From the NCBI GenBank assembly GCA_032128375.1, contig JAQBGU010000086.1, forward strand, positions 1 to 40,360: a stretch of DNA of 40,360 nt. The letters run 5' to 3'. Shown piece by piece: positions 36,001 to 39,000 of this stretch. Positions within the stretch are counted from its first letter, which is position 1; every line of letters begins with the position of its first letter. The position numbers were made by a program. Source of the DNA: Deltaproteobacteria bacterium (GTDB lineage Bacteria; Myxococcota_A; UBA9160; SMWR01).

Positions 36001-39000
36001 GGGGACGACACGTGGACCCTCGCAATCCGCGCTGCTACCAGCCGTGCGGGAGCCGTGTTCCGGCTGGGCATGGCCTTTGCCGGCCCAAACGCGGATACGA
36101 GTTTCTTCGGCTCGCGCGCGAGCTACGTCGACCTCAAGAGGTCGACCTGACGATCGACTACCAATTGAAGCAGGGCTGGTTGACTCTCAAGGTTCGAGCG
36201 TTGATCCCTCGGGCGAATTCGAACCGGCCGGCTCCTCGCGCGTACGCTGCTCCTTCTTCTGCGGTGCGTCGGGCTCCGGCGAGCGCGAGCCCGCCACAGG
36301 GACGGGAGCCGCAACAGGCGGTGGTTTTGCCGGTGCGGCGAACGATGGATCGGATTCGGCTTCGTCTTGGGCCCCCCAGCCGAAGACGTCGCGCGCCATC
36401 GACCAGCGGCGTTTGTTTCCGGGAGGGTCCTTGCCTTCGAACCAGTATCGAAATAGCCGTTCGATCGTGCGGTCACTGCGTTTGAGCACCACCCAGGCGT
36501 CGATGAAGTCGGCCATCCGCCGATCGTCGCGTGCCGTCGCGTAGCCAACTGGCACGCGTAACAACACGGGGTGTGGCACCGCCACGGTGTACTGGGGGTA
36601 GATGAGCGTCCAGGCCGAGCCTGGCTCGGCGGCGAAGACGAGCGCGTCAAACTCTCTCTCATCGGCGCGAAAGACACGGCGCGGCGATTCCACAAGCGAG
36701 ATCTCGGCCTGCGGGAGGAACTCTCGGATCTTGGCGGCGTAGTGGTTGCGCTTCAACGTAGCCAGTCGGAGCGACGGGATCGCTTGCACCGCGGCGAGCG
36801 AACGGAACTCGTCGCGGCGATAGTCTCGCACCACGAAGGCCAGCGTCTCCTCGAGATAGGGCTCCGAGAAACTCATTCGTTCGAGCAGCTCAGGAGTGAT
36901 CGTGAGCCCTGTCATCGCCACGTCGAGCGCACCCGAGTCGAGCAGCTCGGGGAAGCGATCGCTGTTCGTGCGGAAGAAATCGGCTCGGACCTTCAGATCC
37001 CGCGCCAGCGCGTGCGCCATCTCCACGTCGAAACCGACGAGTTCACCCAGCGAATTGCGGAACGCGTACGGCACCTGGTCCGGCGCGTACCCGATGCGCA
37101 GCACCCCGCGCGCGCGCACTCGGCGAAGCGCGTCGCGATACGGTTCCGAGGGCGGCAGCGGATCGTCGTCCCGGTCGCGCCAAGCGACGACGGGCATCGA
37201 AAAGGAGCGCTGGATGAACGCGCGGTAGCCCTCGTAGGGTCGATCGAATCGCTCGAATCCCTGCCGAATGGCCAGCAGTGGCAGCGCGGCGAGGAGGGCC
37301 GACGTGAGCACCCACGTCAAGATCCTCCGAGGCTTCAAACGTACCCAGCCCACCGCTCCACAGCCGGCGACCAGCGAAAGGGCGAGAATGTTCATCGATC
37401 CCGCCAACGCACTGAAGCGCCCGCCGAGCACGCTGTCGAAGACCAGGTAAAGCTGGAACATGTCCGACGGGATGCGAAGCTGATCGAGCTGGAAGGGCAG
37501 TGAGACGGCAGAGCCGGCGAACGATGAAAACAGGCCGGTAAACGCGAATTCGGGGTAATCCAATCGAGAGACGGGGAAGCCCGACTGCCAGCCTGCGAAG
37601 AGCACGAACACCAAACCGAGTAGCTTGCCCGCACCCGCGAGGGTGAATGCGATCGGGACCACTACGCCCACCTGCCGACCGGCCTCCTCGTCGGCGCCCC
37701 GCTCGGCGAGTAACGATCGAGCGCGATCATCGAGGATCGGGAGCACGATGAACAGGCTACCCGTGGCGAAGGCCGTCACCAAAGCGTCTCGCGCCGGGCC
37801 GACGACCGCGCGATACGATAGCGGCGTGACGGCGGCCACCAGCGCGGGCAACACCCAGAAGGCGAGCACCAGCGACAACACCACGTGGGTGACGACGTAG
37901 ACTTCCATGCCGGCCAGCCGACTGGGTTCCATCGTCCCCGCGGCTTCCGCTGCGATCGCGAACAGGCCGTAGGGTGCAAGGCGCACCACGGCATTGCTGA
38001 TGCGCCGCAGCGCGTCTTGCGCAGCCAACAGGGTATCGAGCAGCGCCGCCTTGCGCTCGCTGGTCATCAAGGCCAGACCGAACGCGACGCTGAAGAAGAC
38101 CACCGCGGGCACGACGCCTTCGGACAGGGATCGGAATGGATTCGCGGGAATGTAGGCGTCGATGAAGTCGAACGCGGCGCGTTTCTCGACGAGGCCGACG
38201 CTGAAGTAGGAAGCCGTCGGCCACGCGGGAAAGGCGAGGGGTGAGGACAGGATGAGGAGGAGCACCACCCCCCAAATCACGAGCATGAAGCCGCCCGCGT
38301 ACCTGACGAGCGAACGCGTTCCTCGTCGATTCAGCCCCCCGAGCCCCGACATCAGCGAAATGGCCACGAACGGCAGCACGGCCATCTGGAGTAGCAGCAC
38401 GAAGCCGCGGCCAACGACTCCCATGAACGCCACTTGCTCGCCTGCGACGATGCCGGTCAGCACACCGAGGCCGAGGCTGATCAGTATTTTCGATGCAAAC
38501 GACATCAGTGGAAGTTCCCTCGGCTCAGCTGTATGGACGCAGTGGCGAGCCGGCCCCAGGCTCCGGGGAAACGAGAGCCTCCGTGTCTGCACGCTGGCCC
38601 CAAGTTGCGGCCACAAACGGGTTGTCGACGCGATCGACGCTGCGCGTTCTCGAGGCGATCGCCCCCACGTGGACGTGACGGTAGCCGTTTTTCACGCTGC
38701 CGTTCCGCATCACCACGCCCGCCTCTACCCGTACATCGATCGTGGCGTCCGATCGTGGATAGGTCTCCAAACGGCTCTATCCGGCTCCGGCCACCGAGGA
38801 CGACTTTCCCGATCCCAATACCCCCGTGAATTCAATGGCGCCCCCGGGAAGACTCGAACTTCCGACGCACGGTTTAGGAAACCGACGCTCTATCCTCTGA
38901 GCTACGGGGGCGTGGGGGACTACGCTACTGAATGTGAAAGCGTTTGCGAATTGTCGCAAGTCGCATGAGACTCGACGGCGCGAACTTCTCGAGCGAACTC

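What a model noticed while it worked through the whole genome (the two positions that open the first line are those of the whole stretch)
36187..38505. Glutamate-transporter-family (SDF/DAACS) elevator transporter with a tethered periplasmic amino-acid-type binding protei [...]
Gene g01856 (772 aa, minus strand) is a single polypeptide made of a GltPh/EAAT-type sodium:dicarboxylate symporter-family membrane domain (residues 5-390), one extra transmembrane helix (392-419, preceded by the cytoplasmic loop RLKPRR) that carries the chain back across the membrane, and a complete class-II periplasmic substrate-binding domain of the amino-acid-binding SBP_bac_3 type (about 440-690). The architecture predicts a binding-protein-dependent secondary transporter of the DAACS family, a combination so far accepted only for TRAP, TTT and (2025) TAXI-GltS systems. 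The fusion is a conserved family, not a one-off.
Evidence so far: Pfam: SDF 5-361 (4e-41, model 3-366 of 387) and SBP_bac_3 469-690 (2e-22, model 1-131 of 132). Hydropathy: 19-residue window peak 2.23 at 395-413 after the last SDF helix. AlphaFold2 model from a 32-sequence alignment: mean pLDDT 78.5, pTM 0.66, one long helix 392-419 between the two domains, alpha/beta domain 440-690 with pLDDT mostly 85-95. Foldseek vs PDB: C-terminal domain matches amino-acid binding proteins (AncCDT-1 5t0w TM 0.90, Trp-binding SBP 9e2b 0.80, ArgBP 6svf 0.86, Peb1A 2v25 0.76); N-terminal domain matches aspartate/glutamate transporters (ancestral aspartate transporter 9bgz TM 0.80, GltPh 6v8g 0.68, GltTk 6r7r 0.63, ASCT2 8qrq 0.71). 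Homologues: 993 proteins at E<=1e-30; al [...]
(Added by a program. Inside this text positions count along the whole contig: contig position 1 is position 1 of the stretch shown here. "Call 12" and the like, gene names such as g00115 and contig names such as C1 are that model's own, and its searches are not shown. The text may have been shortened before it was handed on; [...] marks where a part breaks off. The agent that wrote the report below was given it as the finding of a first reader that could run no searches.)

Follow-up and report, generated by a model that had tools for sequence, protein, structure and literature searches.

The report
Glutamate-transporter-fold protein with tethered binding domain
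One gene encodes a membrane protein with the fold of glutamate/aspartate transporters joined through one extra membrane helix to an outward-facing solute-binding domain, which would make it a new kind of binding-protein-dependent secondary transporter if transport is shown.

Summary
The ORF at 36187-38505 (minus strand, 772 aa) carries Pfam SDF at residues 5-361 (1.4e-40) and SBP_bac_3 at 469-690 (6.8e-22). A ninth hydrophobic helix (392-418) lies between them.

The AlphaFold2 model is confident (pLDDT 89.0, pTM 0.85). Residues 1-388 superpose on EAAT3, ASCT2 and GltPh (Z 33-37). The C-terminal domain superposes on AncCDT-1 (TM 0.90).

The fusion is a large, stable family. There are 785 cluster representatives at E<=1e-30, and 142 of the best 150 span both domains. 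At least 581 genome loci from many diderm phyla encode a relative. No genuine split forms and no conserved neighbour genes were seen.

Charge bias places the binding domain outside the cell.

It is not a typical DAACS transporter. The NMDGT motif, the serine-rich HP1 tip and the TM8 Asp/Arg/Asn/Asp set are all replaced, and HP2 is about 6 residues shorter. The binding domain lacks the alpha-amino-anchoring Asp, and this protein also lacks the alpha-carboxylate-binding Arg.

My best reading is a sodium-independent elevator carrier fed by its tethered binding domain, with unknown substrate (confidence about 0.6). No paper describing this fusion turned up. Transport itself is untested.

The parts
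36187..38505 (-). Whole coding sequence, 772 codons plus the stop at 36187-36189 (protein P0001)
   Evidence: ORF list and translation. Homologues align from residue 1.
38516..38521 (-). Shine-Dalgarno-like GAGGGA, 10 nt upstream of the ATG at 38505
   Evidence: Read directly from the sequence. Function inferred.
37342..38505 (-). Residues 1-388: SLC1/DAACS-fold membrane domain (TM1-8, HP1, HP2)
   Evidence: Pfam SDF 5-361, 1.4e-40. VIA-align to EAAT3 8ctc: Z 36.8, rmsd 2.6, 367 aligned over 1-388. To GltPh 6uwl: Z 34.2. hhalign to the genome's own canonical SDF: probability 99.4, 385 columns.
37615..37659 (-). Residues 283-297: TM7 segment aligned with the NMDGT region. VPIAFTLAGAGKLLG here, family consensus VPxxFxFPxxGKLL
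   Evidence: hhalign puts canonical NMDGT opposite AGAGK. Column counts: P290 in 58 of 61; position 294 is K 43, T 11, R 4.
37252..37332 (-). Residues 392-418: extra ninth transmembrane helix that takes the chain back to the outside
   Evidence: AF2 helix 392-418. Hydropathy peak 2.23 at 395-413. Preceding loop net +2.69, following segment -1.00 over 61 sequences. TM8-TM9 loop is 9 residues in 58 of 61.
37132..37251 (-). Residues 419-458: linker between TM9 and the binding domain. Poorly conserved in sequence, narrow in length
   Evidence: Length of 417-467 is 51-55 residues in 53 of 61. Mean top-residue frequency 0.27. Block pLDDT 79-95.
36436..37131 (-). Residues 459-690: class-II (SBP_bac_3) solute-binding domain
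   Evidence: Pfam SBP_bac_3 6.8e-22. AncCDT-1 5t0w: 1.2e-30 by sequence, TM 0.90 and rmsd 2.1 by fold, Z 26.3.
36370..36435 (-). Residues 691-712: conserved Trp-rich C-terminal motif (family PRWSxxRDVLxW, here RRWSMARDVFGW)
   Evidence: R700 in 57 of 61, W701 in 60 of 61, W710 in 47 of 61. Segment conservation 0.53. Role unknown; a membrane-interface anchor is my inference.
36190..36369 (-). Residues 713-772: Pro/Ala/Glu-rich tail, not conserved, predicted disordered
   Evidence: pLDDT below 50 for 731-772. Most family members end within 9 residues of W710, and this tail is the longest of the 61.

Best explanation
The gene encodes a self-contained secondary transporter that depends on a binding domain.

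Proposed mechanism:
1. The N-terminal 388 residues form an SLC1/DAACS (GltPh/EAAT) type elevator, with scaffold and transport domains.
2. Helix 9 carries the chain from the cytoplasmic end of TM8 back across the membrane.
3. The class-II clamshell domain therefore sits in the periplasm above the transporter, held by a linker of nearly fixed length and a Trp-rich C-terminal motif.
4. The clamshell captures a solute and passes it to a remodelled site in the transport domain. That site has a hydrophobic HP1 tip, Lys294 where GltPh has Thr314, Arg363 in TM8 and a shortened HP2. The transport domain then carries the solute inward.
5. All sodium-site residues and the canonical proton-coupling signature are absent. 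Transport is therefore probably sodium-independent: proton-coupled in some other way, driven by membrane potential, or uncoupled.
6. The substrate is unknown and is probably not a standard alpha-amino acid or a C4-dicarboxylate bound in the GltPh manner.

Shown here: architecture, fold, outward topology by charge bias, family conservation, loss of motifs. Inferred: hand-over, transport, coupling, and the roles of Lys294 and Arg363.
For: - Both Pfam domains score far above their cut-offs.
- The membrane domain has the full fold. Residues 1-388 align to EAAT3, ASCT2 and GltPh intermediate outward-facing structures at Z 33-37, rmsd 2.6-3.0, 357-367 residues.
- The single-chain model is confident as a whole: pLDDT 89.0, pTM 0.85.
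- Topology: pre-TM9 loop K+R 2.89 and net +2.69; post-TM9 segment net -1.00; mean TM9 hydropathy 1.84 over 61 sequences.
- The fusion is obligate in this clade. All 120 best hits carry both domains. 142 of the best 150 representatives span query residues <=22 to >=692 in one stretch, down to 31% identity. I read 11 of the apparently unfused hits. Six were membrane-domain-only, and all six end in out-of-frame-looking sequence soon after or inside the membrane domain. Two of them pair with a binding-domain-only hit that shares their longest-contig length.
- No partner genes are needed. The most frequent neighbour family occurs in 6 of 80 loci.
- Transport-domain elements are as conserved as the scaffold (HP1 0.54, TM7 0.56, HP2 0.52) and more conserved than TM9 (0.32) or the linker (0.27).
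- Geometry is constrained. The TM8-TM9 loop is 9 residues in 58 of 61. The TM3-4 loop is 25 residues in 61 of 61. The linker is 51-55 residues in 53 of 61.
- The two domains have diverged together: pairwise-identity correlation r 0.40 against a maximum of 0.26 in 500 shuffles.
- Passages of PMC12344293 propose that SBP dependence goes with elevator-type carriers.
Against: - There are no transport, binding or expression data.
- The canonical DAACS substrate and ion residues are all replaced. NMDGT aligns with AGAGK (family FPxxGK), the HP1 tip reads GSLF/GNLF, and HP2 is about 6 residues shorter.
- No register of TM8 (offsets 24-39) recovers the Asp394/Arg397/Asn401/Asp405 set. The membrane domain could therefore have a function other than carrier transport.
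- TM9 is joined to TM8 of the moving transport domain by a fixed 9-residue loop. I could not inspect model coordinates, so I cannot say how this fits an elevator stroke of about 15 Å (stroke size recalled).
- The binding domain lacks the alpha-amino-acid anchor residues, so its ligand, or whether it binds one at all, is open.
- The mirror correlation is only modest.
Confidence: 0.6

Rival explanations
1. The membrane domain is no longer a coupled carrier. It forms a facilitator or an SLC1-type anion-conducting pathway whose opening is controlled by the tethered clamshell. This would resemble glutamate-receptor channels, whose ligand-binding domains are SBP-like.
For: - All sodium-site residues and the canonical proton-coupling signature are missing (the signature is listed in passages of PMC12668577).
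- The closest membrane-domain match by sequence is an ancestral aspartate transporter titled 'uncoupled' (9bgz, 1.8e-17; 9bgy, TM 0.73).
- The model resembles intermediate outward-facing states best (8ctc Z 36.8, 6uwl Z 34.2). The chloride-conducting GltPh state 6wyk also aligns at Z 26.2.
- HP2, the outer gate, is shortened.
Against: - HP1, TM7, HP2 and TM8 are all retained and conserved at the level of the scaffold, which suits a moving transport domain.
- No feature specific to a pore was identified.
- The state that AlphaFold chooses says little about function.
- A channel gated by an SBP has no precedent in this fold (recalled).
Confidence: 0.12
2. The protein is a membrane-anchored receptor rather than a transporter. 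The SLC1-like domain would serve as an oligomeric anchor or co-sensor. The binding domain would report to, or deliver to, another system such as a sensor kinase or an ABC importer. DctA acting as co-sensor for DcuS is the model for this.
For: - DctA is reported to interact with the kinase DcuS (abstract of PMC5703999 in the listing). A DctA-DctB-DctS sensor unit in Bacillus subtilis is recalled, not checked here.
- The canonical substrate residues are lost.
- SBP_bac_3 domains occur in other tethered contexts: NCBIfam gives sub-threshold similarity to the SBP-like domains of MltF and a Ser/Thr kinase.
Against: - There is no cytoplasmic output domain. The chain starts at TM1 and ends outside the cell.
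- No kinase, ABC permease or other gene is a conserved neighbour. The best neighbour family occurs in 6 of 80 loci and a receiver-domain family in 5 of 80.
- The transport-domain hairpins are conserved well above the TM9 anchor. A mere anchor would not need that.
Confidence: 0.12
3. The C-terminal domain is a periplasmic enzyme of the cyclohexadienyl dehydratase lineage, fused to a carrier that takes up its product.
For: The best sequence and fold matches include ancestral and modern cyclohexadienyl dehydratases: 5jos 1.2e-23, 6wup 1.1e-20, 5hpq 1.6e-10. With the family profile these become 5jos 2.2e-49 and 5hpq 1.7e-36.
Against: - The general-acid Glu173 position (passages of bioRxiv 10.1101/157495) maps to family column 628. 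That column reads A 22, S 8, R 6, G 5, E 4, Q 4 of 61, and is Pro in this protein.
- The top hit, AncCDT-1, is the non-catalytic binding ancestor.
- Reconstructed ancestors are consensus-like and tend to score high against any relative (my inference).
- A conserved Glu627 lies one position before the Glu173 site, so a shifted register is not strictly excluded.
Confidence: 0.03
4. The fusion is an artefact, arising from mis-assembly or from a frameshift that joins two genes.
For: The window is a metagenome-type contig in a 249-contig assembly. One related locus, L022, is cut short where flanking sequence of a different character begins.
Against: - The same single ORF recurs in 142 of the 150 best representatives.
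- It recurs in isolate genomes of Marinobacter nauticus, Ferrimonas balearica and a Shewanella sp..
- It recurs in 9 of 201 sampled genomes of the same phylum (the window's own genome included), with no internal stops.
Confidence: 0.01

Closest known systems
GltPh / GltTk / EAAT / ASCT / DctA (DAACS, TC 2.A.23; Pfam SDF PF00375; SLC1 fold)
   Same: - Whole-fold match of residues 1-388, including both re-entrant hairpins (Z 33-37).
- Pfam SDF at 140 bits against a cut-off of 27.9.
- The conserved IPxNPF motif of TM4 is kept, with P120 and N122 invariant.
   Different: - Extra TM9 and an outward-facing binding domain.
- NMDGT replaced by FPxxGK (AGAGK here).
- Hydrophobic HP1 tip.
- HP2 about 6 residues shorter.
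- No Asp394/Arg397/Asn401/Asp405 equivalents in any register.
- No NCBIfam transporter model is reached: the best, DctA, scores 45 bits against a cut-off of 513.
- The same genome also has a canonical SDF with all motifs intact.
TAXI-GltS of Bordetella pertussis and the TAXI-GltS fusions of Lachnospiraceae (PMC12344293)
   Same: An SBP is associated with, or fused to, a non-TRAP, elevator-type secondary carrier, and function is inferred largely from genetic linkage or fusion (passages read).
   Different: - Unrelated membrane family (GltS against SLC1 fold) and unrelated SBP family (TAXI against SBP_bac_3).
- The SBP is N-terminal there and C-terminal here.
- That paper counts 14 fusions among about 10,000 GltS entries. 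This family has 785 representatives at E<=1e-30.
- This family occurs in diderm phyla, not in Firmicutes.
TRAP (DctPQM, SiaPQM) and TTT transporters
   Same: The concept is the same: an extracytoplasmic SBP feeds an elevator-type secondary carrier (passages of PMC12344293).
   Different: - There the SBP is a separate soluble protein of the DctP, TAXI or TctC families.
- The membrane part has the DASS-like fold and needs an extra Q or small subunit.
- TRAP transport is sodium-dependent, whereas this family has no recognisable sodium site.
GlnPQ-type ABC importers with covalently tethered SBP_bac_3 domains
   Same: The same SBP family is tethered to the translocator. PDB 6h30, 'Glutamine ABC transporter permease and substrate binding protein', matches at 7.8e-09.
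   Different: That translocator is an ATP-driven ABC permease. Here there is no ABC component in the protein or among conserved neighbours.
AncCDT-1 and related cationic-amino-acid binding proteins / cyclohexadienyl dehydratases
   Same: Best match for residues 459-690: 1.2e-30 by sequence, TM 0.90, 28% identity.
   Different: - The alpha-amino anchor Asp170 is Asp in only 2 of 61 family members.
- The Arg of TPER is Arg in 30 of 61 and Leu here.
- The Glu173 position is Glu in 4 of 61.
- The family has its own conserved residues: Asn484, Asp561, Arg564, Glu627, Trp632.

Membership tests
DAACS / SDF (PF00375, SLC1 fold) | Pfam SDF match above the gathering score | tested here: met
   140 bits against a cut-off of 27.9; residues 5-361, model positions 3-366 of 387.
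DAACS / SDF (PF00375, SLC1 fold) | Complete fold: eight TM helices plus hairpins HP1 and HP2 | tested here: met
   VIA-align: 8ctc Z 36.8, rmsd 2.6, 367 aligned over model residues 1-388. 6uwl: Z 34.2.
DAACS / SDF (PF00375, SLC1 fold) | NMDGT motif in the unwound part of TM7 (Na+ sites, substrate Thr314) | tested here: not met
   The canonical NMDGT of the genome's own SDF aligns with AGAGK. Family columns: P290 in 58 of 61; position 294 is K 43, T 11, R 4.
DAACS / SDF (PF00375, SLC1 fold) | Serine-rich HP1 tip (GltPh RSSS) | tested here: not met
   GltPh AFVTRSSSGTLP aligns with AFATGSLFIVLP. Family consensus is TAFATGNLFVVLP.
DAACS / SDF (PF00375, SLC1 fold) | TM8 Asp394 / Arg397 / Asn401 / Asp405 set (GltPh numbering, recalled) | tested here: not met
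   Offsets 24-39 were scanned and none recovers the set. At offset 34, R/K is 0.87 but D/E, N and D/E are all 0.00.
DAACS / SDF (PF00375, SLC1 fold) | Homotrimer | not tested
   Three copies exceed the size limit of the complex tool.
DAACS / SDF (PF00375, SLC1 fold) | Cation-coupled transport of dicarboxylates or amino acids | not testable with these tools
   Needs uptake assays.
SBP_bac_3 (class-II / cluster-F solute-binding proteins) | Pfam match above cut-off and two-lobe alpha/beta fold | tested here: met
   78.1 bits against a cut-off of 26.4. 5t0w: TM 0.90, rmsd 2.1.
SBP_bac_3 (class-II / cluster-F solute-binding proteins) | Alpha-carboxylate-binding Arg (TPER motif; its role is recalled) | tested here: not met
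   Leu540 in this protein. The column is Arg in 30 of 61 family members.
SBP_bac_3 (class-II / cluster-F solute-binding proteins) | Alpha-amino-binding Asp (AncCDT Asp170) | tested here: not met
   Maps to column 625: S 32, T 14, A 4, G 3, P 3, D 2 of 61; Ala in this protein.
SBP-dependent secondary transporters (TRAP, TTT, TAXI-GltS) | SBP genetically coupled or fused to a secondary carrier | tested here: met
   Single ORF. 142 of the best 150 representatives span both domains. All 120 best hits carry both Pfam domains.
SBP-dependent secondary transporters (TRAP, TTT, TAXI-GltS) | SBP located outside the cytoplasm | tested here: met
   Charge bias across TM9 (+2.69 inside, -1.00 outside) over 61 sequences. 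This rests on the known cytoplasmic C-terminus of GltPh (recalled). It is a prediction, not a measurement.
SBP-dependent secondary transporters (TRAP, TTT, TAXI-GltS) | Membrane part homologous to DctM/DctQ, TctA or GltS | tested here: not met
   Only SDF and SBP_bac_3 are found by Pfam. The listed fold matches of the membrane domain (50 rows each) are all SLC1-family structures.
SBP-dependent secondary transporters (TRAP, TTT, TAXI-GltS) | Transport requires the SBP | not testable with these tools
   Needs reconstitution with and without the binding domain.
Cyclohexadienyl dehydratase (PheC/CDT) | General-acid Glu173 | tested here: not met
   Column 628 is Glu in 4 of 61 and Pro in this protein.

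The most novel reading that the evidence does not exclude
The SLC1-fold domain has given up ion coupling altogether. The rigidly mounted clamshell, not HP2 or a co-ion, decides when the pathway is loaded or opened. The protein would then act as a ligand-gated facilitator or anion pathway built from a transporter fold, a bacterial counterpart in logic to glutamate-receptor channels. A less radical version is already my best reading: this is the first SBP-dependent carrier of the SLC1/DAACS fold, and a further independent recruitment of an SBP by an elevator-type carrier beside those already described.
Probability: 0.1. Interest if true: 0.9.

Novelty: new variant of a known kind. Interest (0 to 1): 0.7.

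Why it matters
SBP-dependent secondary transport was long thought to be confined to TRAP and TTT systems. A 2025 paper added TAXI-GltS. It asked why SBPs are not found with other carrier families and proposed that an elevator mechanism is the enabling feature (passages of PMC12344293).

This family would put that idea to the test in the best-understood elevator fold, that of GltPh and the human EAAT and ASCT transporters. The binding domain is covalently attached in a fixed geometry, which suits structural work. The family is also abundant: 785 representatives at E<=1e-30 and at least 581 genome loci. That is far more than the 14 TAXI-GltS fusions cited in that paper, and it includes cultured marine bacteria.

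The family also shows an SLC1-fold protein stripped of every sodium-site residue while its hairpins stay conserved. That bears on how ion coupling can be lost or replaced in this fold (compare PMC12668577).

Tried and rejected
- Docking of the two halves as separate chains (1-432 and 440-715, both from alignment A1) gave no verdict: score 0.01 against a mark of 0.32, and controls were not run. This counts neither for nor against binding.
- Search for natural split forms. Hits of 217-692 aa to the membrane domain and of 151-483 aa to the binding domain were mostly fragments. I read 11 of them. Six are membrane-domain-only, and all six end in out-of-frame-looking sequence soon after or inside the membrane domain. 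The other five are binding-domain-only; some begin without a membrane helix and some with a short hydrophobic stretch. P0269/P0388 and P0350/P0456 share longest-contig lengths, which is not proof of a shared contig. I take them as frameshifted or truncated gene calls, not true two-gene systems. I could not view their contigs.
- L022, which matched only residues 1-411, ends where unrelated flanking sequence begins. I read this as an assembly join and dropped it.
- Conserved neighbourhood: none useful. The largest neighbour family occurs in 6 of 80 loci. ORFs were called crudely, and in 8 high-GC loci an antisense ORF was picked over the gene.
- Expression: no RNA holder was listed for the gene. 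I did not lay reads.
- Earlier notes of this scan: nothing by place, sequence or words.
- Literature: six searches returned no paper whose title or abstract start (as listed), or whose passages where I read them, describes an SDF-SBP fusion. The one DAACS passage in PMC3924187 does not mention it. TCDB and InterPro could not be consulted, and subscription journals are not covered.
- Sequence-only alignment of TM8 is ambiguous. hhalign and the structure-based range ends differ by several residues, so I scanned all registers instead.
- Mapping Arg363 to GltPh Met395 / EAAT3 Arg445 rests only on the end points of the VIA alignments. It is a lead, not a result.
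Full report
**Observation**

The minus-strand ORF at 36187-38616 is open for 809 codons from a TTG. 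Homologues align from residue 1 of that form. A GAGGGA lies 10 nt upstream of the ATG. I therefore accept 36187-38505.

Pfam finds SDF at residues 5-361 (1.4e-40, model 3-366 of 387) and SBP_bac_3 at 469-690 (6.8e-22, model 1-131 of 132). The hydropathy peak of 2.23 at 395-413 is reproduced. One label differs: '993 proteins' is the count at E<=0.001 among 7997 scored candidates, not at 1e-30.

**Structure**

A 61-sequence alignment (A1) gave an AlphaFold2 model with mean pLDDT 89.0 and pTM 0.85. It has a long helix at 392-418 between the domains. Only the tail 731-772 falls below pLDDT 50.

Foldseek matches the C-terminal domain to AncCDT-1 (5t0w, TM 0.90, rmsd 2.1), a Trp-binding SBP (9e2b, 0.81) and ArgBP (6svf, 0.87). 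It matches the N-terminal domain to an ancestral uncoupled aspartate transporter (9bgy, 0.73), ASCT2 and GltPh.

VIA-align places residues 1-388 on EAAT3, ASCT2, GltTk and GltPh structures, best on those in intermediate outward-facing states. Z is 33-37, rmsd 2.6-3.0, with 357-367 residues aligned. The whole SLC1 fold is therefore present, including HP2 and TM8 where sequence similarity fades. The phmmer alignments to GltPh stop at residue 263.

**Topology**

Over the 61 sequences, the loop before helix 9 carries 2.89 Lys+Arg on average (net +2.69). The segment after it is net -1.00. Helix 9 has mean hydropathy 1.84. The C-terminus of GltPh is known to be cytoplasmic (recalled). Together these place the binding domain outside the cytoplasm. 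This is a prediction, not a measurement.

**Family**

The word-indexed search found 993 hits, and all 120 listed carry both Pfam domains. The exhaustive search of 50%-identity representatives found 8149 hits at E<=0.001, 2041 at 1e-10 and 785 at 1e-30. Of the best 150, 142 cover query residues <=22 to >=692 in one stretch, at 31-62% identity and about 715-730 aa. The other 8 are partial or matched in two stretches.

The best 80 come from these groups:
- Myxococcota and 'Deltaproteobacteria', Acidobacteriota, Gemmatimonadota, Desulfobacterales
- Nitrospiraceae, Nitrospinaceae, Verrucomicrobia, Spirochaetaceae, Bacteroidales, Calditrichaceae, Binatia
- Alpha-, Beta- and Gammaproteobacteria, including isolates of Marinobacter nauticus, Ferrimonas balearica and a Shewanella sp.

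Within the window's own phylum the gene is patchy. It was found in 9 of 201 sampled genomes (the window's own included), with up to three matches in one genome.

The window's genome also has one canonical SDF gene with intact STASS, NMDGT, GVPG and DMVRTAVNVTGD motifs. The fusion is therefore an addition to the standard transporter, not a replacement.

**Is the fusion obligate?**

Searches restricted to shorter proteins returned many SDF-only and SBP-only entries. I read 11 of them. Six are membrane-domain-only, and all six end in out-of-frame-looking sequence soon after or inside the membrane domain. The other five are binding-domain-only; some begin without a membrane helix and some with a short hydrophobic stretch. 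Two pairs share a longest-contig length. I read them as frameshifted or truncated gene calls, so I saw no natural two-gene version.

No neighbouring gene is conserved. The most common neighbour family occurs in 6 of 80 loci. The protein appears to be self-sufficient.

**What is unusual in the membrane domain**

A profile of the family's first 430 residues was aligned to the genome's canonical SDF (probability 99.4, 385 columns), and column counts were taken. They show:
- The HP1 tip is TGSLF here and TGNLF in the family, where GltPh has TRSSS.
- NMDGT is opposite AGAGK. The family reads FPxxGK, with Pro290 in 58 of 61. Position 294 is Lys in 43, Thr in 11 and Arg in 4.
- HP2 is about six residues shorter at its tip.
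- In TM8 the only conserved charge is Arg363 (Arg 48, Lys 5).

I scanned every register from offset 24 to 39 for the GltPh set Asp394/Arg397/Thr398/Asn401/Asp405. None recovers it. The end points of the VIA alignments suggest that Arg363 corresponds to GltPh Met395 / EAAT3 Arg445, but that is only an inference from range ends.

The sodium-site residues are listed in passages of PMC12668577: [S/T]92-93, N310, [M/S]311, [D/E]312 and [D/E]405. Those I could map (310-312 and 405) are not kept. The proton-coupling signature L311/N405 is not kept either.

Even so, HP1 (0.54), TM7 (0.56) and HP2 (0.52) are as conserved as the scaffold helices. They are more conserved than TM9 (0.32) or the linker (0.27). 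The site is remodelled and under constraint, not decayed.

**What is unusual in the binding domain**

Using the AncCDT numbering of bioRxiv 10.1101/157495 (passages) and the profile alignments to AncCDT-1 and AncCDT-3:
- The alpha-amino anchor Asp170 maps to a column that is Ser or Thr in 46 of 61 and Asp in 2 (Ala here).
- The Arg of the TPER motif is Arg in 30 of 61 and Leu540 here.
- The dehydratase general-acid position 173 is Glu in 4 of 61 and Pro here.
- The family has its own conserved residues: Asn484, Asp561, Arg564, Glu627 and Trp632.
- After the domain comes a Trp-rich motif, PRWSxxRDVLxW (Arg700 in 57 of 61, Trp701 in 60 of 61).

The domain is therefore an SBP by fold. Its ligand is probably not a standard alpha-amino acid, and a dehydratase function is unlikely.

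The hydrophobic HP1 tip plus Lys294 and Arg363 hint at an amphipathic or aromatic anion. That is speculation.

**Geometry**

The TM8-TM9 loop is 9 residues in 58 of 61. The TM3-4 loop, with the near-invariant ASFFS motif, is 25 residues in all 61. The TM9-to-SBP linker is 51-55 residues in 53 of 61. Pairwise identities of the two domains correlate at r 0.40, against a shuffled maximum of 0.26. This fits a single stable fusion with a fixed mounting of the clamshell.

The 61-residue Pro/Ala/Glu tail of this protein is lineage-specific.

**Mechanism**

My best reading (about 0.6) is a tethered-SBP, sodium-independent elevator carrier. The clamshell captures a periplasmic solute and loads a remodelled site in the transport domain.

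Rivals:
- An uncoupled, clamshell-gated facilitator or anion pathway (about 0.12).
- A membrane-anchored receptor or co-sensor (about 0.12). This is weakened by the lack of any output domain or conserved partner gene.
- A dehydratase-carrier fusion (about 0.03).
- An artefact (about 0.01).

An open problem for the carrier model is that TM9 hangs on the moving transport domain by a short fixed loop. I could not inspect coordinates to see where TM9 packs.

**Comparison and novelty**

By Pfam and fold, the protein belongs to the SDF/SLC1 superfamily and to SBP_bac_3. It fails the motif tests that define functional DAACS transporters and amino-acid-binding SBPs.

It works like TRAP, TTT and TAXI-GltS systems only in concept. 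Its membrane part is unrelated to theirs.

Passages of PMC12344293 state that before that study only TRAP and TTT were known to use an SBP. They also call for further classes to test the link with elevator mechanisms. Six full-text searches turned up no paper describing this fusion. Source names call it only 'cation:dicarboxylase symporter family transporter' or 'Na+/H+-dicarboxylate symporter/ABC-type amino acid transport substrate-binding protein'. TCDB, InterPro and subscription journals could not be checked.

I rate it a new variant of a known kind, with interest 0.7. It is an abundant, structurally tractable candidate, but its function is entirely inferred.

Noticed in passing
window 38836-38911 (-): A tRNA-Arg (anticodon CCT) lies about 330 nt upstream of the fusion gene on the same strand. 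tRNA-Val (14438-14512, +) and tRNA-Pro (24090-24166, +) lie elsewhere in the window.
   Followed up: no
window 34286-35247 (+): A class-I methyltransferase (Methyltransf_11, 1.7e-20) appears split by a frameshift. ORF 34286-35059 loses protein-like sequence after the domain, while the overlapping ORF 34879-35247 in another frame reads like the true C-terminal part. This is either an assembly error or a pseudogene.
   Followed up: partly
window 31312-32127 (+) and 39203-39946 (+): The first ORF is a secreted-looking protein with a PEP-CTERM sorting motif (4.4e-05). The second has no Pfam match but ends in a similar hydrophobic-then-basic tail.
   Followed up: no
window 28279-30276 (+), 30304-30870 (+), 32749-33627 (-): Neighbouring genes are a 665-aa protein with 10 Sel1 repeats (3.7e-96), an NnrU-family membrane protein (2.4e-53) and a glutathione S-transferase. 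None recurs next to the fusion gene in other genomes.
   Followed up: partly
window 36190-36369 (-), residues 713-772: The Pro/Ala/Glu-rich disordered tail is the longest among the 61 aligned family members. Close relatives of 726-853 aa also carry extensions. Its role is unknown.
   Followed up: partly
L025, L048, L065, L071 (also L045), upstream of the match: In four of these five loci (Marinobacter, Ferrimonas, Shewanella and one gammaproteobacterial MAG), a glycosyltransferase-like gene of about 380 aa sits about 50 nt upstream on the same strand. L045, a Geobacteraceae MAG, holds only a 98-aa piece at the contig end. This is the only lineage-specific neighbour pattern seen.
   Followed up: no
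L036 and L040; G083 (three matches): Some genomes carry two or three paralogues of the fusion gene. The TPER Arg column splits about half and half across the family. Together these suggest subfamilies with different ligands.
   Followed up: no
L022 7250-7400: The homologue is cut off after residue 411 where the flanking sequence changes to an opposite-strand hemA-like gene. It looks like a chimeric assembly join.
   Followed up: partly
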